A stretch of 64,000 nucleotides of DNA from Folioceros fuciformis (taxonomy: Eukaryota), in assembly GCA_049999805.1 (NCBI GenBank), contig JBNGIO010006239.1:175412-239411 (forward strand), written 5' to 3'. Position 1 is the first letter of the stretch; every line of letters begins with the position of its first letter. Made by a program: the position numbers and the translations under genes. The notes under the pieces were generated by a model. It saw only the letters and a program-made list of their open reading frames with translations. It made no database searches and had not been told where the DNA came from. Shown piece after piece: positions 22,401-48,097 of this stretch.

Positions 22401-23843
22401 TCATACAAATCCCACGGAGAAATATCGCAAGGCCCATCTTTCAGCAAGTCCAAATGAGGGTTCACCTTTTTGAGAGAGACAAGTTCCTTCCTAAGCGACT
22501 CAACCTCAGAGACTGAAATAATACCATCCTGTGCTGCGTCTCCAGTCCCTGCAGTAGGTGACATAAATTCATTTCTCTTCCAAACCAGAGGAAAGAGACA
22601 ACAAGATCCGCTACTTTCAGACACTCACGCCTTGCTTGAGATGAACCATAGAGCTGCTGAATGCGTCTATCCTTAGCAGCAACATCGGCCTGCAAGGGAA
22701 CAAGGGGTCACCTCAGCCAGAGAAGTTCTGTGATGACAATTTCTGCTCTGTAAAAGCTGTGTGTCAGGGTTTAGCTCGATCGTCCTATTGCTCATCTAAC
22801 TTGCATCATTGGAAGCGTACCTGTGACATCTCAAGCTTATTTGTCAGGATGCAGACTTTGTCTTGCAGTTCTTTCTCCATTTGCACTCTGCGTTATCATG
22901 CATAGACTTAGGGACAGACAAACTGAATGATAACTTGATACAGAGTCTCTTGTCAATATTCTGTGAAATCTTGGAAAAAGCTGCTCGTTCTTACCGAGAA
23001 CAGACCAACTCCGGTTGATTCCCGCTTGGAGAAGGCAGCGAAGGAGCTGCCAAGGGAGCGAAAACCCAAAACATCAATACTGCTGAGAGTGAGTGGTGAG
23101 GCTGTAAACGGTATGCCGATCAGGCAAAAGGAAACAGGACAGGAACAGGGCGTCTTTGACTCACAGAGTTTTTGGGATACCACAATCTGAGCGACGCTGT
23201 CAGATTTGCTTGCCTTGCACTCTGCATACACCAACCGGTTTTGTTTTATGAATCATTCCAGAGAGTCGCAACTAATTCCTGCTTAAACTGAGCACCCAGC
23301 AGCAGCACCAGCAGCGTTACGGTCACCTGTGGAGGGGCCCGGGGAGAGCTTGCTCAGGGTTGCTCGCAGTGCTTCGTTCGCGCTCTCCAGCTCCTGAATT
23401 CTCTGCATGCTGACGGTCCGCCATTGCCGTAAGGTCCCTTGCGAGTCCGCAACCTCCTCCTCATTGCTGGAAAGAGGACTATTCTGCTCGATAGCTGTGC
23501 AAGACGATTCCTCTTTCAATATGGGTGATCCGGCTTTCAGTTGCATTTCCGCGCTGTCCTTGGCAAGCCGTTCGTTGAGCAATCGCAAGCTCTCAGCCCT
23601 CAACCTCTCCTTGTGAAGATTGTCGGACGTACTGGTGAGCTGCGTCCTCAAATTGTGGCACGTCTCATTCATAGACGTCAGGTCGTGAGTGAGCTTTTCC
23701 ATGATTGCCATTGCAGCCGTGTCCAGCTTCTCCACCACGGCTGCCAGAGGAAGGGGTGCATGGGCGTACAAAGAGTCGTACCCCCAAGATTGCAGCTTCG
23801 CTATCAACGGAGCGTGCAATGCAGGCATGCTTGCTTGAACCAT
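16489..23843 (-). CDS. CEP135: Centriolar long coiled-coil protein CEP135/Bld10-like; many exons
   Basis: N-terminus LIAKLQSWGY...MAIMEKLTHDLTSMNETCHNLR resembles the recalled CEP135 N-terminal motif (KRLDQLGY...LPLVEKLFSDLVHTTESLR). It is followed by ~7 kb of minus-strand heptad-rich exons (e.g. LKTLITQLDSTREELV, LEALGKERDHLLSE). Last exon ALRVRPSIDGHEV* with stop at 16489-16491. Confidence 0.75.
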
Positions 23844-24910
23844 CCTGCCCTCCCCTTCAAGCTCGTCCTCGAGAAGAACAAGACTGAAAACGAGCAGGAT
23901 ACAAGAAGTAAATTCGGAGAGAGTCCGTGCAGGCAAATTTGAGAGGAATTGGCACTGAGGACAGTCCTGGAAACGTCGCCGTAACCGCTTCTGAGAGAGG
24001 CTGCGTTCGGAACTTCGGAATCCGGTCACAGCCAAAGCTTAGTAGGATGATCAGAGCTCCAAGAACCCAAAAACTGTAGTCGGCCCGGGAACTCAGGCTG
24101 TCTTGCAACAAAAGGATCCTCATGCGTCATGTGGGAGTTTTGAATCAGCCCGGCGGGCTCCATTTCTGTTAGCAGGGATCGAAATCGCAGTGCCAACCAG
24201 ATAGAAGGCTGCAACACTCTGCCGAGAAGCAATCCGATTGGGAGCTCCAACCACGATCTTTCAAGAAGACACGGCACTTGCGTTAGAAGCGCATCAAGAC
24301 ATGTGGGTCGGGTCGGGCTGTGAGTTCAAATGCTGCACTGTCTTGGTGGGCGCCTCCTTCAAGATGAGACGGATGATCGAATTATAGCGACTGCCCGAAA
24401 TCCAGAGCGTTCCCAGGAACGTCCCCCGCATTCGAGAGGCAGAGCGGCGAAGCGAGGAGGGCACCGGCCAGAAACCGGCTGCAGGCGGTCGGGCGACGAG
24501 GTCATGCCGAGCGAGGACGCGAGGATCTCTGCAAGTGCGGAAGGCCGGACTCCTACTCGTGCAAGCGCCGTCTCTGTGCATACATACCATACATATCTAG
24601 ATTAGGTCTTGCACATCCTTCCATGCTGGCTGCCGGGCTGGAACTGAAGCTTACTTACCCTGGTGGCTGACAGTAGGCGTCTCAGTAGGCGTCTGTTGTG
24701 AAATGGGAAGGGCCGCCCAGCCTGGTCCAGGAACAAGAGACTTGTAGTGGCCTCCAGCTGGTGGAGCAGGTGAGGTGAGAGGCCAGGAGCGGCAAATGCA
24801 CAATGTGGAGGGAGAGCCTCGTTGACAGATAGCAGCATGGAAGTGTTTCTAACTTGCCTGGATGCCAGGCTTTTTCTCCATTTGCCGGGCCGCAGGAGTG
24901 AGCAAGAGGG

Positions 24911-26328
24911 ATGGATGTAGATCCTCAGCAGTACGAGCATGTGGTAAGATGCTGGTTGCTGTTGGATGGGAGGCATTGCAGTGCATCGCAGTCATTGGGT
25001 GTCTGCAATCGGCACCATCAAAGAGCCCTGGGGATCATCTGGTTTCACTCAATGTGTGACTCAAAGCAGAGCATCAGCGACAAGGATGTGCAAAAGATTG
25101 TGTTATCGTATCTGGTGCACAATTGCTTCAAGGACACAGCGGAAGCCTTCGTTGCCGGCACGGAAATTGAATGCAGTTTGAACGCCCTTGCGGAAATGGA
25201 GACACGGAAGCGTACGTGCCATCACTACTTGAAAATCATGCCATTTTCCTTCTCGTGTCACTCGTCAGTCGGACCGCTTATGCCGTACCATGGATCGAAG
25301 GTGCTCGTTCCTGGCTTGTAAACGAGAAGAAAGCACGGGGGAAGGTAGCTCTGCATTACGCACTCTTGGTGCGGTCATGCTGCAGGAATCTATAACTCTG
25401 TACTGGAGGGCCAAGTGTTGAAAGCCATCAATCTCACCAACCGTTTTGCTGGAGACCTGTTAGCCACTAGCAAGGACATCCATTTCAAGCTTCTCAGGCT
25501 CCACTTCCTGGAATTGGTGCGGTCCAACGACTGGTACAATCCCTCCACCACCAGCTGAGTACCGCCATGACTGAACATTTTCCGCACTTACTTGAGGCCT
25601 AACTCAGGGCTGTGGCTCAGCAACGGAGCACTCGACTTCGCACAGAGGGAGCTTCAGCAGTATGGAGGTCAGGAGAAGTATGTTGACATGTTTCAGGTAA
25701 GCAAAAGCTGCGAGCAGATATCCTGTTTCGTAGCCCTATGCAGATATCTGCATTGATGGAACCAGTTTAAATCCTTGACGAAGTGGTACGTGGAGTTGCC
25801 ACAGGATTGCATGGCTCTGTTAGCGTACAGCGAGCCACAGATGTCTCCACTGCAGCATCTGCTCAGCGTGGAACACCGCCACAGCGTGGCAGATGTGCTC
25901 AACTGTGCCCTACTACGTGAGTAGCACCTGTTCCCGATTCAGAGTTCAGCCAGTGAAATGCTGTTTCTTTCGTAACACTCTACTCTAACAGTCTTCGTCC
26001 CTTTCTAATTTCCAGGGCGTGCCAACCTTCCACCCCACGCCGCGCTTGAAACGCTTCTGAAGCAGCTCACCGTGGTCACGCAACTGCAAGGGATTCACCT
26101 TCCGTGTATGTTTCCATCTTCCACGCTGCTCTCCACACGGTCTCGTGGACATGGCACTTGTTGCCGTCGGACTTATCCGACAGGAACTGTCGCGCCCCAC
26201 TGATCCGTCGACTCTCCATGCTCTTGTCTGTCAGGAACGTTCTTTACCAGCAATGGCAGGATGCGGTTGGTCGGCATCATGACACAAGAGGCCGTTCCTC
26301 CCATGAATCATCCACGCCACTGCCGTGA
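24911..26328 (+). CDS. GID8/TWA1-like LisH-CTLH-CRA protein (CTLH E3 ligase subunit); 3' end uncertain (~26100-26328)
   Basis: MDVDPQQYEHV, LisH motif DVQKIVLSYLVHNCFKDTAEAF, CTLH motif IHFKLLRLHFLELVR, and CRA motif DCMALLAYSEPQMSPLQHLLS..HRHSVADVLN, all on GT-AG-flanked exons. Confidence 0.88.
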
Positions 26329-26778
26329 GCAGCGGAGTGAATTTCGCTAGCACTCCCATCAGAGCCCCAGTCAGATACGTTATGGTCCATAATTTACAAG
26401 ACCCGTTGCCGCTATTGAACCAGCTTGTGACCTGTATGGCCACTCACCAGCCGGACTGGTCCTTCTCTTGATCTGGCTCGGAACTCGATTGTGGTTTGGC
26501 ACCTGATCGATGCATAGAGGAGGCAAGCACGGCTGGCGTGGACGCTGCAGGTGCGCGACGGAGGACCAAGTTGTCTCCTGTCGTTGTGATCTTTTCCTTA
26601 AATGTTTTTCCCGTCGGTGTCTTATGGTGTGAAACATGGGGTTGGTTATACAGGCCAGTCGTCGCTCGAAAGGGCACCCTTGTTATCTTACTGGGACCCG
26701 AGACGCTATCCCACAGCTTTCAGGGACGTAGCTTGTCCTCCTTCCGTCAGTCTCCTCGGGCAGGGCGGCGGGGCGAAG

Positions 26779-28122
26779 ATGGAGCTGCAGCTGAAGCTGA
26801 AGCCGCTGCTCGTGACCAAGCCGGAGATCCAGTTCGTGCTGCTGAGCTTCACGGATCTCCTGGGAGTGGCTCGCTCCAAGCTCGTGCCGCGGGACGCGGC
26901 CCTGGAGATGCTACAATCTGGAGAAGGCGCCGGCTTCGCGGGCTACGCGGCGCACCTCGATCTCAGCCCGGCGGACCCGGACGTGATGGCCATACCGGAC
27001 CCGGGTGCGATCGCATTCCAGCTGCCATGGAACCGCGAGCTGGCGTGGGTGCCGTGCGACCTCTTCCTGCGTGGCCAGCCATTGTCACAGTCACCGCGGC
27101 AGGTGCTGAAGGCGCAGGCGGCGCGGGCAGCTCAGCGCGGGCTCATGGTAAGGACGGGCGTGGAGGCGGAGTTCTACCTCCTGCACGCCTCCCAGCTCCA
27201 GCCAGGGGACCCGCGCGACCAGTCCGCCAAGCCCTGCTACGACCAGTCGGCCCTGACCCGTCCGGGCGCGGCCACTCTCCGGGTGGTGACCGCGCTCTGC
27301 GACCACATGCGTGAGCTGGGGTGGGGGCCGTACCAGGCGGACCACGAGGACGGGAACGGGCAGCTTGAGATCAACTGGGGGTACGCGGACTGCGTGGTGA
27401 CGGCCGACCGGCACGCCTTCTTCAAGTTCATGTGCAAAGCGGTGGCGGAATCCGTGGGAATGCGGGCCAGCTTCATGCCTAAGCCGTTCCTGGAGCGGAC
27501 AGGCAACGGTGCTCACTGCCACGTGTCCGTGTGGGGGGAGCATGGACGCAACCTCTTCCTGGACGACACGGACGAGCTGGGGCTGTCGCCCGCGGGCTAC
27601 GGCTTCATGGGCGGGGTGCTGGCGCATGCAAAGGGTTTGGCCGGGCTCACCAACCCGACCGTGAACAGCTACAAGCGGATCAACAACACCGGCGGCGGGA
27701 GTTCGTCGGGGTCCTCTTGGGCGCCTTGTTCCATTTCGTGGACGGGGAACAATCGCACGCACATGATCCGTGTCCCGGGCCCGGGAAGATTCGAGCTGCG
27801 TCTCCCCGACGGCGCCGCCAACCCATACCTCCTGCAGGCGGGGATTGTGGCGTGCGGGCTGGAGGGCATGGAGAAGGGGCTGGACCCTGGCCCGCGCTGC
27901 GACTGGAATGGGCACGGCCCGGCTCCTCCGGAGCATCCGTTTCTGGAGCAGCTGCCCACCAGCCTTTTGGACGCACTGCGGGAGCTGGAGGAATCTATTG
28001 TGCTCTCCGACACCTTGGGGGACCAGTTGGTGGGCGCCTACGTCAAGCTGCAGAGGCAGCAATGGAATTCGTATGCCGCACACTTGAGCTCCTGGGAATT
28101 GGACAACACCTTAGACTGCTGA
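26779..28122 (+). CDS. gmaS: Intronless glutamine-synthetase-family ligase of bacterial GlnT/GmaS type (gamma-glutamylmethylamide synthetase-like), 447 aa
   Basis: Single ORF with SFTDLLGVARSKLVP, GAGFAGYA, QLPW, TGVEAEF, KPCYDQSAL, LGWGPYQADHEDGNGQLEINW, TADRHAFFKFM, FMPKPF, TGNGAHCHVS, NPTVNSYKRIN, WAP..ISWTGNNRTHMIRVPGPGRFELRLPDGAANPYLLQA and a WELDNTLDC terminus. This is colinear with the recalled proteobacterial GmaS consensus. Confidence 0.88.
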   Translation: MELQLKLKPLLVTKPEIQFVLLSFTDLLGVARSKLVPRDAALEMLQSGEGAGFAGYAAHLDLSPADPDVMAIPDPGAIAFQLPWNRELAWVPCDLFLRGQPLSQSPRQVLKAQAARAAQRGLMVRTGVEAEFYLLHASQLQPGDPRDQSAKPCYDQSALTRPGAATLRVVTALCDHMRELGWGPYQADHEDGNGQLEINWGYADCVVTADRHAFFKFMCKAVAESVGMRASFMPKPFLERTGNGAHCHVSVWGEHGRNLFLDDTDELGLSPAGYGFMGGVLAHAKGLAGLTNPTVNSYKRINNTGGGSSSGSSWAPCSISWTGNNRTHMIRVPGPGRFELRLPDGAANPYLLQAGIVACGLEGMEKGLDPGPRCDWNGHGPAPPEHPFLEQLPTSLLDALRELEESIVLSDTLGDQLVGAYVKLQRQQWNSYAAHLSSWELDNTLDC

Positions 28123-28418
28123 CGGAGAGGTATCCCCCCTTGTATATATTTTGATCAAAGCTGTTCAATTTTCTCAAGATCTATCCCTAATCAATCTGGA
28201 AACACTAGCCCTGCCCTAATCATTAGACCAGCATCCTCCCCTCAAAACAGCCCAAAAAAAAAAACTGTTAGATATTCCACCCACAGGTCTCTGCAGAAAT
28301 GACACTGATCTCCCGACACCTTGTCTTCTGCGATTCAAACTAGTCTAGGTGTCAAAGTCAAAATTTACTGCTTCCCACACTTCTTTCCGGAACAACCGGA
28401 TAAAGGAGGACAAATAAC

Positions 28419-31052
28419 TCAGATGAGCAAAGACTCTCTCCTGTGTTCGCGCAGAATCACGGGAACACTGGTCGGAGGAACCTGGGACATTGCCACTGCG
28501 TTGTTAGCACAACGCCCTCGACATGAGGCGACAAGGAAAAAAGAGAAAAGAATGAGAGCTGGGAGGATTACCATGCCAAGCTCTGTAATGATCATTGCAA
28601 CGTAATCTGCTGGTGTAGCATCGTACCTGCAGGTTGTTAACCGACACCACACAATTAAACGACGGTCCACAGTCCAAACAACCACTTTCCCCTGTCTTCG
28701 CTGATGCTTTCGGTGGCAAAAAGCGGCAACTTGAAACAAGACACTTACGTTAGATTCAACAACTGGAGGTGCTCCAAATCTTCCCAGCCTTCCAAGGGCG
28801 TCAAGTCCTGTCTTCCTGCGACCTTGACTAGAACATCAGGGTCCCCTGCCACCGTTGCCCCAATCAGCCCTCATCTCCCACATGACAAGGACGAAAAGAG
28901 AAGGACTGGAGCAGCAAACTGGAGAATGAGGCTTCTTTGCTTGGCGAGGCAGGTAACTCACCTAACTCATTAGCGCAGATAGAATCCAATTGCACTCTTT
29001 CATGGAACTTGTACGTTTCGCAGCAGATCATTACCGGAATGTGGAACGAATGAGCCACCATGGCAACACACGCAGTGCCCACCCTCGAGTATACAGTCCC
29101 ATTTGCAAGGACGGATGCCGCTCCAAGAAAAACTCTAGTGACTTCGTGCATAATGTATGATATTGAGTTTATCTGGCAGTAGGTGCACTGCAGCCCCTTC
29201 TCCAGCAGTCTGCGTATCAGGTGGCGTCCTTCAAGCTTAGGCCTGGAATCCACCACCACCACCCTAAACTTCCGGCCAATTTCATGAGCCCTTAGAAGAA
29301 TCATCTCCACGACAGACGAGAAGCCATGTGTCAATAGCACATCTCCATCCCTAATCTTCGTCACAGCATGCTTGACTATCTCTGTATCAGCGAACACAAT
29401 CTTTTCTTGCAGGAATCGGTCAATCTCAGCAATGAGAGACGCCTTGGCCTCTGCCTCCTCTACATTGGAGAGCCTCACAATCCTCGTCTTCAAAAACTTG
29501 ATAACATTACCCATGCCTATAGACAGAGGCCTGCACTCTATGAGAAACGACACTTGACTGTTGATCCTCGCAGCTAAATCTCTCACCCAAGCCTTCTCAG
29601 GAGGTGTGCTGTAATCTTGAATCATTTCCCTGAAGGCGCTCAGCAACGCCACACACCGGGCATTTCCTCCAACAACATCTCCTGTCAAATATTGAAGCCC
29701 AATCTGCGTGAACAACAACATGGGAGGTAGGTATCGCACAGCATGGCAGACACAAACCGAACCTTGTCCAAAATCAACATGCCAGGAAAACGCATACCTT
29801 GTACACAGCAGGATGAGGGTGCATGAAATCCTCGTGGAAGTACTTGGCCTCAATCAGAGCCAACCTGTCCCCGTGAACAAACTGTGGCAGGTGTCTAAAC
29901 AGCTCCACCCTGTTCTTGGCCTCCGTCTGCTCCGTAAAAGCTCTCTTCCTGGCCTTAGCCACCCGCTGTGGGTCATCAAACTGCATCCTGGACGGCAACT
30001 TCTTATCCGCCACCTTCTTGTCTCCACCATCTTTTTTCTGGGCAGCAACAGGCTTCCCGACCTTGGGCTCTCTGAGTTCCTTCTGAGCAGGTGGCACGGA
30101 CACGCTGGCACTGTCCTGCCCACCACCAGTCCCCTTCCCACCACCTGCCGCCAGCCCACATCATCAATTCTTGCACACAGCGGCCAGCACCAACACATCC
30201 GTAACCGTAACCGTAACCGTAACCTAGCCACACCACATCAAACGCTGCCCAGGGTGCGCAAGTACCAACATCCGACCGCGAAGCCTTGACAGCCCGCTGC
30301 GCATTCTGAAGCGCGCGCCGCTCCGCCTTCGATGTCCGCTCCTTCAACGTCTTGGTCGTGTCTGCAGCAGGCGATGTGCAGCGGGCGGTCATGCCAACTG
30401 ATCACCCAACAATCCCAATCCTGCCAAAAAATTTAAACACCATCAAACGCAAGGTTGCAGGTTCCTGGTCCGTACTCCCGGCAGGCGGCACGCCTTCTTT
30501 CCCCGCCTTGGGCGCCGCACCCGCACCAGAGCCCGGGGCGGGACCCGGTGCCGCCGGCCCGGAGGCTCCCACACCCTCCGCACCCCTGAGCAGCATCGCC
30601 GTGTCTGTATACCCATCAGCGCCTTCCCCGGCCCGGATGGAAAGCCGCTCCGCAAATCCTCCCAACAGACCAAGACCCTTGCCCTTCTCCTTCCCCGCGC
30701 TGGCAGGCGACATCTCTCCCGCAGCCTCCAGCTGCAGGCTGTCGGTCCGGCTCAGGCTAACCCCGTTGCTAGACGGGGAGAGGGAGCTGACCAGGAGCGC
30801 ATCTGATGGGTTGTAGCTCCCGGCCACGAGGCCCCCCGGCTCCCCGGGAATCCGCTTCGGGGAGGGCACGGCCATGGGGATGGCCTTGGTCTGCGGGGGG
30901 CCGATCATGACGGGGGAAGGCGAATTAGCCGCGGCGATGGACGGGGGCGCCGCCGCCTCCGACGCCGCCCGCTGAGCCTCGGAGCCGGGAGTCACAAACC
31001 CCACCTGGCGCACGATAGGATCGATGACCATGCGGCCCCGTCGCGGGTCCAT
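28419..31052 (-). CDS. Translation initiation factor eIF2B subunit delta; multi-exon
   Basis: MDPRRGRMVIDPIVRQVGF, TSKAERRALQ, VELFRHLPQF, HPAVYKIGLQY, GGNARC, ECRPLS, DSRPKLEG, SRVGTA, CETYKFHERVQLDSI, YDATP, PPTSVPVILRE. Stop at 28419-28421. Confidence 0.95.
30199..30224. repeat. (CCGTAA)4 microsatellite in an eIF2B-delta intron
   Basis: ccgtaaccgtaaccgtaaccgtaacc read directly. Confidence 0.8.
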
Positions 31053-31680
31053 CCTGCTCCTCTCCCACTTCCACTTCCTGCTGCTGCTGCTGCTGCCGGG
31101 CTAGTTCCGAAGACGCAGAAGGAGACGATGCCTGACTGCCTGCATGTGGCGGGAGCCCTGCTGCCCGGTTCCACTCCGCTTGCGTGCATCACACTCCTCG
31201 CCGTGCGCTGTGCGCCGTGCTCCGTTCTCCGAGCTGGACGCGGAGGCAAACCTTGGAAAAGCAATGCGTATGGTCTGAGCCGTGCCGGGGCTGGACGACG
31301 CTCGTACTCCTCTCACTTATGCGTCGTCCGGTCCAAGTGTCCTCGCCACCTCCGTTTTGCTTTCGTCATCTACATATATAGACCTCCCGGCCGGATGCGG
31401 ATGCCCGCCTACGCCTATGCCACCTATATTGTCCATATTAGCATATTCCAACTTCTGCAAAACTTTGTTTGAGGGAAACCACTCTGGTATTGTCTGCCAT
31501 TCTCTTCAAGGAAGCACTGTGAAGGCCAGTTGATTACTCTGTGCACTTGGGCAGGCCAGTACTGTCTTCTCAGATCTTGTTGTGGACGGGAGGACAGGAC
31601 TGGTTGAGGGTATCGTTCTCTTGGACCAGCTTGGTTGGTGATCTGCCTAAGCAGTGGATGGTGAGCTTGCTGGTGTGGGG

Positions 31681-34617
31681 ATGGAGGTGGGTCGTTGTGC
31701 CTCCACCTCCAACTGGAGCTTGCAGATTGATCCTGACTCTCGCAGAGGCGGAGGAGGGCAAGTGGGCGTAGCTGCTGAGACCGTGGGCCAGCTTTGTGAG
31801 CGGGGCCATGTGGCTGAGGCTGTTGAGGGATTGGGAGTGTTGGTGCAGCGGGACTGTCCTATTTCCACAGCTCTTTTTTACGGTGTGCTCAAGAGCTGCA
31901 TGGTGAAGAAGGATCTTGTGCTGGGTCGCCGGGTGCATGCTGCCACGGTGAGGCATGGGTACCAGTCGGATAGGTTCCTGGGCAATCATATCCTGCGAAT
32001 GTATGCTTCTCATGGTAGGTTGGAGGAAGCGATGGATGTGTTCACCGTGGTTCGCAAACCTGATGCCTTCATGTGGTCTTCTATAATCACTGCGCATGTG
32101 AAACACGGAGAGGCTGAGCATGCCGTACAGTTGTATCGTCAGATGCGCAGGTCGAAGGTGAAGCCAGATGGCCATGTGTTTGTGGCAGCCCTCCAGGCTT
32201 GTGCAAGGGGAGCAGACTTGAAGGCTGGGGAGGAGGTGCATGCTGATGTGTTGGCCAGTGGGGTTGAGCCTGATGCGTTCGTTTGCAGTTGCTTGGTGGA
32301 CATGTATGCAAAGTGTGGAAGTCTGGAAGACGCTCAACGATTGTTTGATTGGCTTCCCAAGAAATCTGTGGTGACGTGGAATACCATGATCACAGGGTAC
32401 TCTGCGCAGGGCATGGGTGAGGAAGCCCTTCGTCTTTACAGCGCTATGCAACGAGAAGGCAGTACTGCACCTAATTCTGTGACATTTGTGTGCCTGCTGC
32501 AGGCGTGTGCGAGTGTTGGTGTTCCAGCTCTAGAGAAGGGGAAGCAGCTTCACACACAGATTAAGGAGCAAGGAATTCAGGTTGATGTGGTGGTGGGTTG
32601 CAGCCTGGTAAACATGTATGCAAAGTGTGGCAGCCTCCAGGATGCACGGAGCGTGTTTGACACTCTTTCTCACAGGAATGTAGTGACTTGGACTGCTCTC
32701 ATAGCAGGGTACTCTCAGCATGGCATGGGTCAGGAGGCGCTCAATCTGTACACTGCTCTGCAAGACGACGGCTTCACCGCACCTGACCCTGTGACATTTG
32801 TCTGCCTGCTGCAGGCATGCGCAACTGTGGGCTCTCCAGCTTTGGACACGGGCAAGCAACTTCATGCACAGATTGGAGAACAAGGACTGCAAGCAGATTT
32901 GACTATAGGCAACAACTTGGTGAACATGTATGCAAAGTGTGGCAGCTTGGAGGATGCTCGGAGTGTGTTTGATAGACTTGGTCGAAAGGATGCAGTGACA
33001 TGGACCGCCTTAATTGCAGGGTACTCCCGACAGGGCATGGGTAAGGAAGCTCTCGCTGTTTACAGTGCCATGCAAGAAGAAGGAGTTGCTGCACCAGATT
33101 CTGTGACATTCCTGTGCCTCCTGCAGGCATGTGCAAGTGAGGGGACGTCTGCTTTGGAGAAGGGGAAGCTGCTTCATGCCGAGATTGGAGAACGACAACT
33201 TCAGCTTGATGTCGCTGTAGGATGCAGCCTGGTAAACATGTATGCAAAGTGTGGCAGCTTGAAGGATGCTCAGAGCGTATTTGACAAGCTCCCTGAAAAA
33301 AATGAAGCAACTTGGACTGCGCTCATACAAGGCTACTCCCAGCACGGCTTGGGCCAGGAGGCCCTTCATAGGTACCGCGCTATGGAGGAAGAGGGCCTTG
33401 CTGCACATTCCGGCACATTCTTGCGCCTCCTGCAGGCATGTGCAAGCATGGGCGCCTCGGCTTTGGAGGACGGGAAGGAGCTTCATGCACGCATTGAACG
33501 GCAGGGCCTTCAGTCCGATGTGTCACTAAGTTGCAGCCTCATAAACATGTATGCAAAATGCGGCAGCCTGGAGGATGCACAACGTGTTTTCGACGGACTC
33601 GGCAAGAAGGATGTGGTGATATTCAATGCCATGATAGCAGGCTACTCCCAGCAGGGCATGGGGGAGGAAGCCCTCCGTCTCTACAGCACTATGCCAAAAG
33701 AAGGCATCGGTCCACCCGACTCTGTCACCTTTCTTTCCCTCTTGCAAGCATGTGCGAGTTTGGGAGCACTGTATGCTGGAAGGCACCTTCATGCACAGAT
33801 CAGGGAACAAGGGCTTGAATCTGATCAGTTTGTCGCCATCAGTTTGATCAACATGTACGCCAAGTCCGGGAGCATGGTGGACGCACAGGAGGTGTTCGAT
33901 GCATTGCCGCAGCGAGACGTCATCGCCTGGAATGCCCTGATTGCAGGCTACACCCGCCAGGGAGACAGCGGAGTGGTCTTCCACCTGGTCCGCAAAATGC
34001 AAGAGGAGGATGGCCTACTTCCAGATGCCATCATCCTCCTCAGCGTACTAACAGTGTGCAGTCATGCCGGTCTGGTCGACAAAGGCCGGGAGCTCTTCGA
34101 GTCCATGAACAGAGAGTCCGGCATCACTCCAACCGCAGAGCACTACTCATGCATGGTAGACCTCCTGGGTCGTGCAGGCCAACTGGACGAGGCCCTAGCC
34201 CTAGTCAAGACCATGCCTGTTCCGCCTCACGGTGCACTCTGGCTCAGTCTCTTAGGCTCTTCCCGGAAGTGGGGCAATGTGGATGTAGGACGCTGTGCCT
34301 TCGATGAAGCCGTGAAGCTGGACGAGAAAGACGCCGCTCCGTACGTGCTGATGGCCAACATTTACACCGGCGTCCAGATGCTGGAGCAGGCCCAGGAGAT
34401 GCACGCCAGGAGAAAGCTAATGGGAGCCTGGAAGCTCCCGGGCCAGAGCTGGTGGACAGACATGGACGGCCTGGCTCACAGCTTCGTGGTTGGCGATAGG
34501 AAGCATCCTGAGAGTGACGATATCTACGCAAAACTCGATCAGCTAGTACTCCGAATGAAGGAAGAAGAATGTGTGCCGAAAGATCTAAACGGCCGTCTGA
34601 ACAACGTGAACACTTAA
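31681..34617 (+). CDS. PLS-class pentatricopeptide repeat protein with E/E+ extension, ending before the DYW deaminase core; probable organellar RNA-editing specificity factor
   Basis: Long uninterrupted ORF of P-L-S triplets (NMYAKCGSLEDA; VTWTALIAGYSQ.GMG.EAL; DSVTFVCLLQACAS), then HYSCMVDLLGRAG, an E domain, and KLPGQSWWTDMDGLAHSFVVGDRKHP. The stop comes before any HxE/CxxC/DYW. First in-frame ATG is 31681; an upstream exon is possible (AG at 31653-31654). Confidence 0.93.
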   Translation: MEVGRCASTSNWSLQIDPDSRRGGGGQVGVAAETVGQLCERGHVAEAVEGLGVLVQRDCPISTALFYGVLKSCMVKKDLVLGRRVHAATVRHGYQSDRFLGNHILRMYASHGRLEEAMDVFTVVRKPDAFMWSSIITAHVKHGEAEHAVQLYRQMRRSKVKPDGHVFVAALQACARGADLKAGEEVHADVLASGVEPDAFVCSCLVDMYAKCGSLEDAQRLFDWLPKKSVVTWNTMITGYSAQGMGEEALRLYSAMQREGSTAPNSVTFVCLLQACASVGVPALEKGKQLHTQIKEQGIQVDVVVGCSLVNMYAKCGSLQDARSVFDTLSHRNVVTWTALIAGYSQHGMGQEALNLYTALQDDGFTAPDPVTFVCLLQACATVGSPALDTGKQLHAQIGEQGLQADLTIGNNLVNMYAKCGSLEDARSVFDRLGRKDAVTWTALIAGYSRQGMGKEALAVYSAMQEEGVAAPDSVTFLCLLQACASEGTSALEKGKLLHAEIGERQLQLDVAVGCSLVNMYAKCGSLKDAQSVFDKLPEKNEATWTALIQGYSQHGLGQEALHRYRAMEEEGLAAHSGTFLRLLQACASMGASALEDGKELHARIERQGLQSDVSLSCSLINMYAKCGSLEDAQRVFDGLGKKDVVIFNAMIAGYSQQGMGEEALRLYSTMPKEGIGPPDSVTFLSLLQACASLGALYAGRHLHAQIREQGLESDQFVAISLINMYAKSGSMVDAQEVFDALPQRDVIAWNALIAGYTRQGDSGVVFHLVRKMQEEDGLLPDAIILLSVLTVCSHAGLVDKGRELFESMNRESGITPTAEHYSCMVDLLGRAGQLDEALALVKTMPVPPHGALWLSLLGSSRKWGNVDVGRCAFDEAVKLDEKDAAPYVLMANIYTGVQMLEQAQEMHARRKLMGAWKLPGQSWWTDMDGLAHSFVVGDRKHPESDDIYAKLDQLVLRMKEEECVPKDLNGRLNNVNT

Positions 34618-45530: not shown

Positions 45531-48097
45531 ATGGTGGCCAACAAGCGCGTCAAGGTGGTGGTGGAGAATGGCAGTGGTCTCGGCAGTCGGAAGGAGGATA
45601 TCCTCCTCCAGCAGCACGACCCTAGCGTCAACGGATCCGGGCAGGACCATCACATGGATACCGCGGCCGTTATCCCCAAGTTCTGCTTCGAGCGCGCCGG
45701 GGGTGAGATCGTGCACGATCCGCTCAACTGGGTGCGCACTTCTGAGACCCTGGAGGGCAGCCATCTGGACGAGGTGAAGCAGATGGTGGAGTTGTTCTAT
45801 GGCTCCGACGAGGTGGCCATCGAGGGGGTCAATTTGACTGTCGCCCAGGTGACCGCCGTCGCCCGCCGCCCCAGCGTGAAGGTCCGCCTCGATGTTGAGG
45901 CCGCCAAACAGCGGGTTGACGAGAGTTCCAGCTGGGTGCTCTCTAACATGGCGAAGGGCACTGACACCTACGGTGTTACTACGGGTGCGTTGCAATGCCA
46001 CTATCGTTCAGTTTTTGCCGCCCTGGTGTTGGTGCTTTCGGAGGTGCTGCAATCAGGGTGCTAAGGATTTGGGAAGCGGTGCTGTCGACGCAGTCAATTC
46101 TGCTCTGATTGCCTGGCTTGGTTGACGGGTGGTGTGTGTGTTCGCTGTTTCAGGATTCGGGGCCACCTCGCACAGGAGGACGTCGCAGGGGGCAGAGCTG
46201 CAAAAGGAGCTCATCCGGTTTCTGAACGCAGGGGTTTTTGGGAAGGGAGACGGTAACACGCTGCCAAGTACGGCGGCTCGCGCAGCGATGCTAGTGCGGA
46301 CCAACACGCTGCTGCAGGGGTTTTCGGGCATCCGGTGGGACATTCTGTGTGCCCTGGAGAAGCTTTTGAACGCTCACGTGACGCCGAAGCTGCCTCTGCG
46401 GGGGACCATCACGGCGTCGGGGGATCTGGTGCCGCTGAGCTACATTGCGGGGTTGATTACGGCCCGTCCTAATTCCCGCTGCTTCACGGCCGAGGGGAAG
46501 GAGGTGACTGCGGAGGAGGGGTTGCGCATTGCCGGGGTAACTGAGCCTTTTGTGCTGCAGCCCAAGGAAGGGTTGGCCATCGTGAATGGCACGGCCGTGG
46601 GGGCCGCCATGGCCTCCATGGTCTGCTTCGACGCAAACATCCTGGCTGTCATGGCGGAGGTTATGTCGGCTTTCTTTTGTGAGGTCATGAACGGTAAGCC
46701 TGAGTTTACCGATCCCCTCACCCACAAGCTGAAGCACCATCCAGGCCAGATGGAGGCTGCCGCCATCATGGAGGTGAGCATTGGTGCAATGCACTCGCAC
46801 TATTTGGTTGAGACATTCTCTGAGATGTGGCGAAATTCGAAAGATTTTCCAGTCTTTCTTGCTCGTCGGTTTTATGTTCCTGAATGTGTCCGTGTCTCTG
46901 CAGTGGGTGTTGGATGGAAGTTCCTACATGAAGCTGGCAGCAAAATTGCATGAGACGGACCCTCTCAAGAAGCCAAAGCAGGACAGGTATGCTCTGCGGA
47001 CCTCCCCGCAGTGGCTCGGGCCGCAAATTGAGGTGATCCGGAACGCGACCCACAGTATTGAGAGGGAAATTAACTCCGTCAACGACAACCCGATCATCGA
47101 CGCAGCCCGGTCCATCGCTTTGCACGGAGGAAACTTCCAGGGGACTCCCATCGGAGTGTCTATGGACAACATGAGGCTGGCGCTGGCGGCCATCGGGAAG
47201 CTCATGTTTGCGCAGTTCTCTGAGCTGGTGAACGACTATTATAATGGGGGTCTGCCGAGCAATCTGTCGGGTGGGCCAAACCCGAGTTTGGACTACGGAT
47301 TTAAAGGGGCTGAAATCGCCATGGCCTCCTACACGTCGGAGCTGCAGTTCCTGGCTAATCCGGTGACGAACCATGTGCAGAGTGCGGAGCAACATAACCA
47401 GGATGTGAATTCGCTGGGACTGGTGTCCGCCAGGAAGACGGCCGAGTCTGTGGAGATTCTCAAGCTGATGACAGCCACTTACCTCGTCGCTCTGTGCCAG
47501 GCTGTGGATCTGAGGCATTTGGAGGAGAACATGGTCGCCGCGGTGAAGAAGACGGTGTCGTTGGTTTCTAAGAAGGTGCTTTCCACTGGCAGCAATGGAA
47601 CTTTGCTGCAGTCCAGATTTTACGAGAAGGAGCTGCTGTATGTGGTGGAGAACCAGCCTCCTTTCACCTACGTGGACGATGCTTCCAGCCCAGCTTACCC
47701 CCTGATGCAGAAGCTGCGGCAGGTGTTAGTGGAGAAAGCTTTGAAACCTCCCAAGGAGCTGGAGGCTGACGAGAGGCTGACTTTGTTTCAGAGAATTCCT
47801 CTGTTTGAAGAGGAATTGGTGGCAGCCCTGGACGTTGATGTACCGGCTGCCAGGGCGGCCTATGACAAGGGGCTGGCTACCTTGCCTAACAGGATACAAG
47901 AATGCAGGACGTACCCGCTCTATCAGTTCGTGCGGTCAGAGCTGAACACCGAGCTGCTTTGTGGCCTCATCAAGAACGGCTCTCCAGGCTCTGACTTCGA
48001 GAAGGTGTTCGATGCAATTAGCGATGGCAAGCACATCGCCCCCCTGCTGAAGGTGTTGGAAGGATGGCAGGGAACTCCTGGCCCATTCGAGGAATGA
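45531..48097 (+). CDS. PAL: Phenylalanine ammonia-lyase; exons 45531-45984, 46154-46773, 46904-48097
   Basis: [22 protein letters not shown] (Phe at the specificity site, i.e. PAL rather than TAL), MIO motif [50 protein letters not shown]. Confidence 0.97.

What the first reader, a model, noticed from the sequence alone, without database searches (positions are those of the whole stretch)
26925..27730. Active-site signature points to an amine gamma-glutamyl ligase rather than an ammonia glutamine synthetase
Seen: metal, ATP and glutamate ligands appear intact (GVEAEF, DHE..NGQLE, GNGAHCH, NSYKR, NNR, ELR). However, the catalytic-flap position reads SWAP (Trp at 27718-27720) instead of the canonical GS YEAP, and the N-terminal DGSS ammonium-site loop is replaced by FAGYA. 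Established: loss of these residues is typical of GS-like enzymes acting on organic amines, and bacterial GmaS also accepts ethylamine to make L-theanine. Inference: local differences from my recalled GmaS consensus (GYAAHL for GFATWL, QADHEDG for QNDHEDA) may have shifted amine specificity.
Basis: partly seen in the sequence, partly recalled or inferred. Interest (0 to 1): 0.7.

Follow-up and report, generated by a model that had tools for sequence, protein, structure and literature searches.

The report
Bacterial methylamine ligase in seedless plants
This plant gene is a copy of the bacterial enzyme that attaches methylamine or ethylamine to glutamate; it entered plant ancestors long ago and is kept in mosses, liverworts and clubmosses, which suggests an unstudied way for early land plants to capture small amines.

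Summary
The motifs are real: Trp flap (27718-27720), FAGYA instead of DGSS, intact metal/ATP/Glu ligands. The 447-aa protein (26779-28122) is a GmaS (gamma-glutamylmethylamide synthetase) orthologue: TIGR03105 above cut-off, and all 23 positions named in the RhGmaS structure paper are identical. This is land-plant nuclear DNA, probably a hornwort. The gene is bridged to intron-bearing neighbours at equal depth and lies on a spliced RNA contig. Orthologues in Spirogloea, Netrium, Marchantia, Riccia, Calypogeia, Sphagnum, Ceratodon, Physcomitrium, Selaginella and Diphasiastrum form one clade that roughly follows the plant tree. This points to one ancient bacterial transfer; the donor is unresolved. 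The downstream mgsABC genes were not found in the genome, and a canonical GSII is present. The 'specificity' changes (Y56, H59, A187) are not private: they are shared across land plants and lie outside the published amine pocket, so a shift is possible but unshown. Ten literature searches found no description of a plant GmaS; two large HGT catalogues' tables could not be seen. The scan had noted Trp-flap GmaS before, in other genomes whose notes describe prokaryotes; no plant note was found.

The parts
26779..28122 (+). GmaS-type CDS, 447 aa, no intron in the coding part, no transit peptide evident, GC3 0.85
   Evidence: TIGR03105 554 bits, cut-off 469.6; 7CQL 486 bits; the start matches the bacterial and plant N-termini
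26551..26653 (+). Inferred 103-nt GT-AG intron upstream of the start codon. It removes the upstream ATG at 26602 that ORF callers use.
   Evidence: RNA contig piece begins at 26651; the exon model sums to the 959 nt needed between listed pieces. The joint itself was not among the 15 joints shown.
26654..26778 (+). Spliced leader before the ATG; A at -3 and G at +4
28123..28264 (+). 3' untranslated part covered by the RNA contig; it ends at a genomic A run, so the true end is unknown
26878..26880 (+). K34 = RhGmaS K30', the neighbour-subunit residue of the methylamine pocket
26935..26958 (+). FAGYAAHL loop replacing the GS Asp50' loop; A54 = RhGmaS A48'; Y56 and H59 are land-plant states (bacterial F, W)
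27157..27174 (+). GVEAEF: metal ligands E129, E131 (Rh E122, E124)
27238..27240 (+). Y154 = Rh Y147, amine pocket
27331..27384 (+). Y185-Y202: Q186, catalytic D188 and E197 (Rh D177, E186), E190, N199, W200, Y202; A187 is the embryophyte state
27502..27528 (+). GNGAHCHVS: G242, H246, H248, S250 (Rh G231, H235, H237, S239)
27676..27726 (+). Gate loop R300 to SWAP, with Trp314 in place of the GS catalytic flap Glu
27748..27801 (+). NNR...ELR: R326 (Rh R312, catalytic), R331, E339, R341
27901..27915 (+). DWNGH, a streptophyte signature; H379 replaces a Tyr found in 297 of 297 non-plant rows
24911..26236 (+). Upstream neighbour: spliced LisH/CTLH-domain gene (about 200 aa; 'GID8-like' is a recalled label) on the same RNA contig
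28479..31052 (-). Downstream neighbour: spliced IF-2B-family gene (eIF2B-delta-like, recalled label); boundaries approximate

Best explanation
A functional, single-copy nuclear gene of a seedless land plant (probably a hornwort) encoding a cytosolic GmaS orthologue. It was inherited vertically from one bacterial acquisition made no later than the common ancestor of Zygnematophyceae and land plants. Inferred chemistry, by identity with RhGmaS: ATP binds and orders the Trp gate loop; Mg2+ and R326 drive gamma-glutamyl phosphate formation; D188 deprotonates a small primary amine; E197 resolves the tetrahedral intermediate. The product is gamma-glutamylmethylamide from methylamine, or theanine from ethylamine, with ammonia a poor substrate. 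Because mgsABC was not found, the likeliest role is trapping a diffusible, ammonium-mimicking amine as a stable amide for storage or detoxification, later released by host hydrolases, not the bacterial N-methylglutamate route. Shown: sequence, family, locus, splicing context, clade. Inferred: activity, substrate, location, physiological role.
For: TIGR03105 above cut-off for the query and for 13 of 13 eukaryotic relatives tested; none reaches the GlnA cut-off. Best solved relatives are RhGmaS by sequence and by fold (Z 51.0, rmsd 1.9 A, 420 aligned). 23 of 23 positions named in PMC7948447 are identical in the query and in 12 of 12 embryophyte rows. RhGmaS Km: methylamine 27 uM, ethylamine 58 uM, NH4Cl 8.7 mM. 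Plant rows form one clade in three trees: SH 99 with 13 rows, 94/94 with 10 rows, 94/99 with 16 rows. In one search embryophytes (97/89), mosses (98/99) and lycophytes (99/97) are recovered. DNA contigs bridge the gene to both spliced neighbours at the same depth of 11.9, and an RNA contig from another study carries it. One close copy in G000. A canonical GSII exists elsewhere in the genome.
Against: No assay of any plant member was found. Second-shell positions that are nearly fixed in the sampled bacteria changed in land plants (Y56, H59, F60 in others, A187, H379). The query has the longest plant branch (1.04) and private insertions. The downstream fate of the product is unknown: MgsA, MgsB, MgsC and soxB-family searches gave only PurF-like, GOGAT-like, weak or no hits, though in a fragmented assembly searched exon by exon. 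Whether these plants meet methylamine in useful amounts was not established.
Confidence: 0.68

Rival explanations
1. Same origin and chemistry, but the land-plant enzyme has been retuned to another amine, such as ethanolamine, a larger alkylamine or a diamine.
For: A187 in 12 of 12 embryophyte rows against 0 of 5 algal-position rows and 0 of 297 non-plant rows; H59 in 12 of 12; Y56 in 11 of 12; loss of a Tyr invariant in the non-plant rows. In NpaA1 the equivalent N-terminal loop lines the amine tunnel and decides substrate range (PMC11335346 passages). No mgsABC was found to use the methyl product.
Against: All seven published pocket residues are unchanged. PMC7948447 finds no residue of the 47'-61' loop binding methylamine. 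M. mays GmaS tolerates G and I at the F50 and N176 positions. Physcomitrium keeps F at the Y56 position.
Confidence: 0.2
2. It serves as a low-affinity back-up ammonia glutamine synthetase, or as a non-catalytic or regulatory GS-fold protein.
For: RhGmaS turns over ammonia with the same kcat, only at millimolar Km. Databases label the Marchantia orthologue 'glutamine synthetase'.
Against: Both GS ammonia residues are absent. The GlnA cut-off is not met. A canonical GSII is present. Full retention of the catalytic set across mosses, liverworts and lycophytes argues against a dead enzyme.
Confidence: 0.08
3. On origin only: the gene came from the cyanobacterial plastid ancestor rather than by later horizontal transfer.
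For: Cyanobacteria carry a GmaS clade near the base of the group. The AU test does not reject plants + cyanobacteria (p 0.274). Like the plant gene, 7 of 7 cyanobacterial loci lack mgsABC in the fetched flanks.
Against: No tree nests plants inside cyanobacteria; one search places them with proteobacteria (93/83). No named chlorophyte, red alga or glaucophyte appears in the 120 rows listed by each. No transit peptide is evident.
Confidence: 0.12
4. Bacterial contamination in the assembly, or a recent transfer into this one lineage.
For: The CDS is intronless with GC3 0.85, higher than any neighbouring exon measured in frame (0.55-0.79). One DNA run holds a short piece of a separate, bacterial-looking gmaS.
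Against: Contigs 24449-27413 and 27511-30425 bridge the gene to plant genes at equal depth, and a spliced RNA contig from another study carries it. The best hits are bryophytes, and it nests among embryophytes.
Confidence: 0.01

Closest known systems
GmaS of Rhodovulum sp. 12E13 (RhGmaS, PDB 7CQL/7CQN; PMC7948447), TIGR03105 'type III glutamate--ammonia ligase'
   Same: Fold (Z 51.0, rmsd 1.9 A, 420 aligned, 51% identity). All 23 named ligand, pocket and catalytic positions, including the Trp flap and Ala for Asp50'.
   Different: Plant nuclear gene with an inferred upstream intron. No mgsABC beside it or found in the genome, whereas 61 of 80 bacterial loci have all three genes in the fetched flanks. 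Y/H/A/H for F50/W53/N176 and the Tyr aligned to H379.
GmaS of Methylovorus mays (PDB 9QUR)
   Same: Trp flap, DHED motif, GAGFA loop; Z 45.9.
   Different: 40% structural identity; a different GmaS branch; G and I where the query has Y56 and A187.
Type I glutamine synthetase (B. subtilis 4LNI, P. polymyxa 7TDP)
   Same: Fold, metal and ATP ligands.
   Different: Has the catalytic flap Glu and Asp50', both absent here; about 30% identity; GlnA cut-off not met.
Horizontally acquired glutamine synthetase of Physcomitrella (Yue et al. 2012, PMC3493653)
   Same: A bacterial-origin GS-family gene in a bryophyte.
   Different: That gene is 59-61% identical to Runella, Dyadobacter and Meiothermus proteins and is listed as moss-only with a CFB donor. 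The closest named bacterial relatives here are proteobacterial and cyanobacterial GmaS, so I take it to be a different gene; I did not fetch its sequence.
Tea theanine synthetase (recalled, no call)
   Same: Could make the same product, theanine, from ethylamine.
   Different: Recalled as derived from plant GSII, a different family from GmaS.

Membership tests
GmaS (TIGR03105) | Score above the curated family cut-off | tested here: met
   554.4 bits against 469.6
GmaS (TIGR03105) | Trp in place of the Glu flap and Ala in place of Asp50' | tested here: met
   W314 and A54
GmaS (TIGR03105) | Catalytic R312, D177, E186 and pocket Y147, Q175, E179, N188, K30' | tested here: met
   All identical
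GmaS (TIGR03105) | Branches within the GmaS clade, apart from GSI | tested here: met
   Joined to proteobacterial and cyanobacterial GmaS at SH 97; same grouping
GmaS (TIGR03105) | Kinetic preference for methylamine over ammonia | not testable with these tools
   Needs an assay
GmaS (TIGR03105) | Dodecamer with inter-subunit active sites | not tested
   Only a monomer was modelled
N-methylglutamate pathway (gmaS + mgsABC + mgdABCD) | mgsABC next to gmaS | tested here: not met
   No hit in the 64-kb window
N-methylglutamate pathway (gmaS + mgsABC + mgdABCD) | mgsABC and mgd genes elsewhere in the genome | tested here: inconclusive
   Not found with single-protein queries or TIGR01373. MgsA hits were 31-32% (L086 reads as PurF-like), MgsC hits 34-35% (L085 reads as GOGAT-like), MgsB none, soxB far below cut-off. 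The assembly has 7240 contigs and is searched exon by exon.
Type I ammonia glutamine synthetase (TIGR00653) | Flap Glu, Asp50' and score above cut-off | tested here: not met
   247 bits against 429; W and A at the two positions
Gamma-glutamylputrescine synthetase (NF045547) | Score above cut-off | tested here: not met
   230 bits against 650
Ancient bacterial transfer into streptophytes | Plant copies monophyletic, among bacterial relatives, integrated among host genes | tested here: met
Ancient bacterial transfer into streptophytes | Non-cyanobacterial donor | tested here: inconclusive
   AU p 0.274 for plants + cyanobacteria; placement differs among

The most novel reading that the evidence does not exclude
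Zygnematophyte algae and seedless land plants share a dedicated, bacterially derived enzyme for capturing small amines as gamma-glutamyl amides (gamma-glutamylmethylamide or theanine). It was retuned in the land-plant ancestor, works without the bacterial N-methylglutamate genes through a plant-specific route, and was lost in ferns and seed plants, so that tea had to reinvent theanine synthesis from ordinary GS. It would be an unrecognised nitrogen or one-carbon pathway of early land plants.
Probability: 0.3. Interest if true: 0.82.

Novelty: new variant of a known kind. Interest (0 to 1): 0.62.

Why it matters
GmaS is used as a marker for methylamine-using bacteria (PMC7948447). Here it is a conserved gene of bryophytes, lycophytes and their algal sisters, annotated only as 'glutamine synthetase' or 'hypothetical'. 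If active, seedless plants have their own high-affinity trap for methylamine or ethylamine. That bears on nitrogen use in peat and soil crusts, on how gmaS reads in moss-rich metagenomes are interpreted, and on where theanine can be made. It is directly testable: Marchantia (MARPO_0140s0025) and Physcomitrium (LOC112278114) each gave one gene in these searches and both are knockout models. The active-site signature alone is published and ordinary; the host range is what counts.

Tried and rejected
Longer 506-aa ORF from the ATG at 26602: rejected, because that ATG lies in the inferred intron. In-frame fusion with the upstream LisH/CTLH gene: rejected; that ORF stops at the 26105/26235 junction, 439 spliced nt before the GmaS ATG. 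Co-transfer of the cyanobacterial neighbours: the hydrolase was not found and the desaturase gave one 29% fragment. PF03951 found nothing in G000 although a GSII gene is present, which shows that negative own-genome searches can miss intron-split genes. No run was on record as RNA; X2 was judged RNA from its splice joints. Contig depth was not used to rank expression. The AlphaFold model (pLDDT 83.7; gate loop 301-313 below 50) gave no coordinates, so distances of Y56, H59 and A187 to the pocket were not measured. The ESM Atlas only repeated the family label. The 50%-cluster search added Paulinella but no further named plant among the 10 clusters looked up. In the GC3 table the MOCS2B row and two eIF2B rows were in the wrong frame and were dropped. 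Absence from ferns and seed plants rests only on the top-120 lists, each scoring 8000 candidates, and is a hint. PMC13447667 (passages) held nothing on specificity. Look-ups of earlier scan notes by place and by plant words were empty.

Full report
Observation. The flagged stretch lies in a + strand ORF, M26779 to stop 28122, 447 aa. TGG at 27718-27720 encodes W314.

Family. The protein passes the TIGR03105 cut-off (554 against 470 bits) and fails those of GlnA and of the putrescine ligase. Its best solved relative is RhGmaS, 7CQL, at 486 bits against 219 for the best true GS. An AlphaFold model aligns best with RhGmaS (Z 51.0, rmsd 1.9 A, 420 aligned). I read parts 1-4 of 6 of PMC7948447. It names W300 and A48' as the replacements of the GS flap Glu and Asp50'; D177, E186 and R312 as catalytic; and Y147, Q175, D177, E179, E186, N188 and K30' as the methylamine pocket. 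Its Km values are 27 uM for methylamine, 58 uM for ethylamine and 8.7 mM for ammonium. I mapped its numbering by hand through the alignment printed (chain number minus 20). All 23 named positions are identical in the query, and in 12 of 12 embryophyte rows.

Host. The neighbours are eukaryotic: a PPR protein with E and E+ motifs and an IF-2B-family gene, and a LisH/CTLH gene. G000 has 87 Mb in 7240 contigs and one close copy of the gene. In one search, DNA run X1 has contigs 24449-27413 and 27511-30425 that join the gene to both neighbours at depth 11.9, like the flanks; X1 may be the source of the assembly. Run X2, from another study, shows canonical intron ends at 12 of the 15 joints listed (42 more were not shown), none seen in the DNA runs, so I treat it as RNA. 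One X2 contig covers 26651-28264 plus upstream pieces. A nine-exon model with eight GT-AG introns gives exactly the 959 nt needed between the listed pieces. This implies an intron at 26551-26653, just before the start codon; that joint is inferred, not listed. GC3 is 0.85 against 0.55-0.79 in neighbouring exons: high, but not out of range by much.

Relatives. The best hits are Calypogeia and Sphagnum, ahead of bacteria. A plant profile added Riccia sorocarpa, Ceratodon and Diphasiastrum. A C-terminal region chosen to separate plants from bacteria added two Marchantia species, Selaginella and Physcomitrium. Cluster look-ups named Spirogloea and Netrium. All 13 of 13 eukaryotic relatives tested pass TIGR03105. 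The plant rows form one clade in three trees. In one search the algal-position rows branch first, embryophytes are 97/89, and mosses, lycophytes and marchantioid liverworts are each recovered; Calypogeia is unresolved. The query is a long branch inside embryophytes but outside all of these groups. With the small genome and short introns this suggests a hornwort (inference). The donor is open: plants are sister to cyanobacteria + proteobacteria, unresolved (where the long Paulinella branch joins them at 92/75), and with proteobacteria. Plants + cyanobacteria is not rejected (p 0.274). No fern, seed plant or chlorophyte is named in the 120 rows of each of the three searches, which is a hint of the range, not proof.

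The specificity idea. The compared set is 297 non-plant rows: 217 proteins, many unnamed and partly redundant, plus 80 loci preselected by a pattern that allows only N or A at position 187. Y56 and A187 occur in 0 of them and H59 in 8; H379 replaces a Tyr present in all 297. These changes are shared: A187 and H59 in 12 of 12 and Y56 in 11 of 12 embryophyte rows; A187 in 0 of 5 algal-position rows. For a shift: in NpaA1 the matching loop lines the amine tunnel (PMC11335346, passages). Against it: the pocket is unchanged, the RhGmaS paper finds that loop not binding methylamine, and M. mays GmaS has G and I at those positions. Verdict: possible, unshown, and if real an ancestral land-plant event.

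Pathway context. 61 of 80 bacterial loci carry mgsA, mgsB and mgsC in the fetched flanks; the window carries none. Genome searches with the three Labrys proteins and the soxB family found only PurF-like, GOGAT-like, weak or no hits. These negatives are soft, since PF03951 missed the GSII gene that a pattern then found on C1543. With GSII present, ammonia assimilation does not need this gene. Seven of 7 cyanobacterial loci also lack mgsABC in their flanks, some of them short, so a stand-alone GmaS has a precedent.

Mechanism, committed (0.68): a cytosolic GmaS that converts methylamine or ethylamine plus glutamate and ATP into the gamma-glutamyl amide, trapping the amine for storage or detoxification. 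The chemistry is inferred from residue identity; the physiological role is inference only. Rivals: another amine (0.20); back-up GS or non-catalytic (0.08); contamination or recent transfer (0.01). On origin, separately: plastid-derived (0.12).

Literature. Ten full-text searches (listings and abstract starts only) showed no paper describing a plant GmaS, and six gene identifiers gave 0 papers. The moss GS of Yue et al. 2012 appears to be another gene (PMC3493653, passages and supplement passages); PMC9667741 lists the same Runella-linked GS (passages). Passages searched in PMC9310647, PMC7027989, PMC12448838 and PMC12513842 had no occurrence of 'methylamine'. The one supplement held for PMC12513842 had no hit and, at 22,685 characters, cannot be its HGT tables. 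The cut supplement of PMC11228847 showed FluG-type entries in the two rows displayed. Ma et al. 2022 is not held. The family may therefore already stand in an HGT table as 'glutamine synthetase'; I could not check. The library lacks most subscription papers.

Verdict. Observation confirmed; interpretation partly supported. The Trp-flap signature is published and ordinary. A GmaS clade conserved from zygnematophyte algae to lycophytes, apparently unrecognised and testable in two model plants, is the finding. New variant of a known kind; interest 0.62.

Noticed in passing
window 24259-28264: One RNA contig joins the spliced LisH/CTLH gene and the GmaS ORF, 439 spliced nt apart with seven ATGs between. 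Overlapping UTRs merged by the assembler are likelier than a two-gene transcript, since the same contig also absorbs a minus-strand intron.
   Followed up: partly
G000 C2947, L090 1255-3014 (-): A second GS-like gene, split by introns, with a GSWAP flap. One exon is closest to Brucella 11ZS and Chromohalobacter Csal_0679 (5DM3); 5DM3 is recalled as an ethanolamine gamma-glutamylase. Possibly another bacterial-type amine ligase in this plant.
   Followed up: partly
G000 C6002 (L089) and C2846 (L095): GS-like exons resembling plant NodGS/FluG (label recalled); the C2846 copy has stops and may be a decayed duplicate.
   Followed up: no
L023, L026, L027, L029, upstream of gmaS: In 4 of 7 cyanobacterial loci gmaS follows a fatty-acid-desaturase-family gene and a PRK07581 hydrolase instead of mgsABC (families tested for L026 and L027 only). 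An apparently conserved three-gene module of unknown substrate.
   Followed up: partly
protein P0123 (Paulinella chromatophora): A GmaS-family protein with an N-terminal extension of about 70 aa in a photosynthetic amoeba; it also has H at the H59 position. Its place in the trees is unstable.
   Followed up: partly
window 27229-27432, run X3: A contig at depth 95.7 matches short stretches of the gene and continues into a different, bacterial-looking gmaS sequence: a likely gmaS-bearing microbe in the sample.
   Followed up: no
proteins P0122 and P0144: Candidatus Auribacter proteins of 4424 and 2757 aa with several GS-like stretches in one chain.
   Followed up: no
window 31654-34617: Intronless PPR gene with E and E+ motifs and no DYW hit; summed contig depth over it reaches about 2800 against 12 in the flanks, indicating a very large family.
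   Followed up: no
window 46126-48097: Two long exons that read like phenylalanine ammonia-lyase (label recalled).
   Followed up: no
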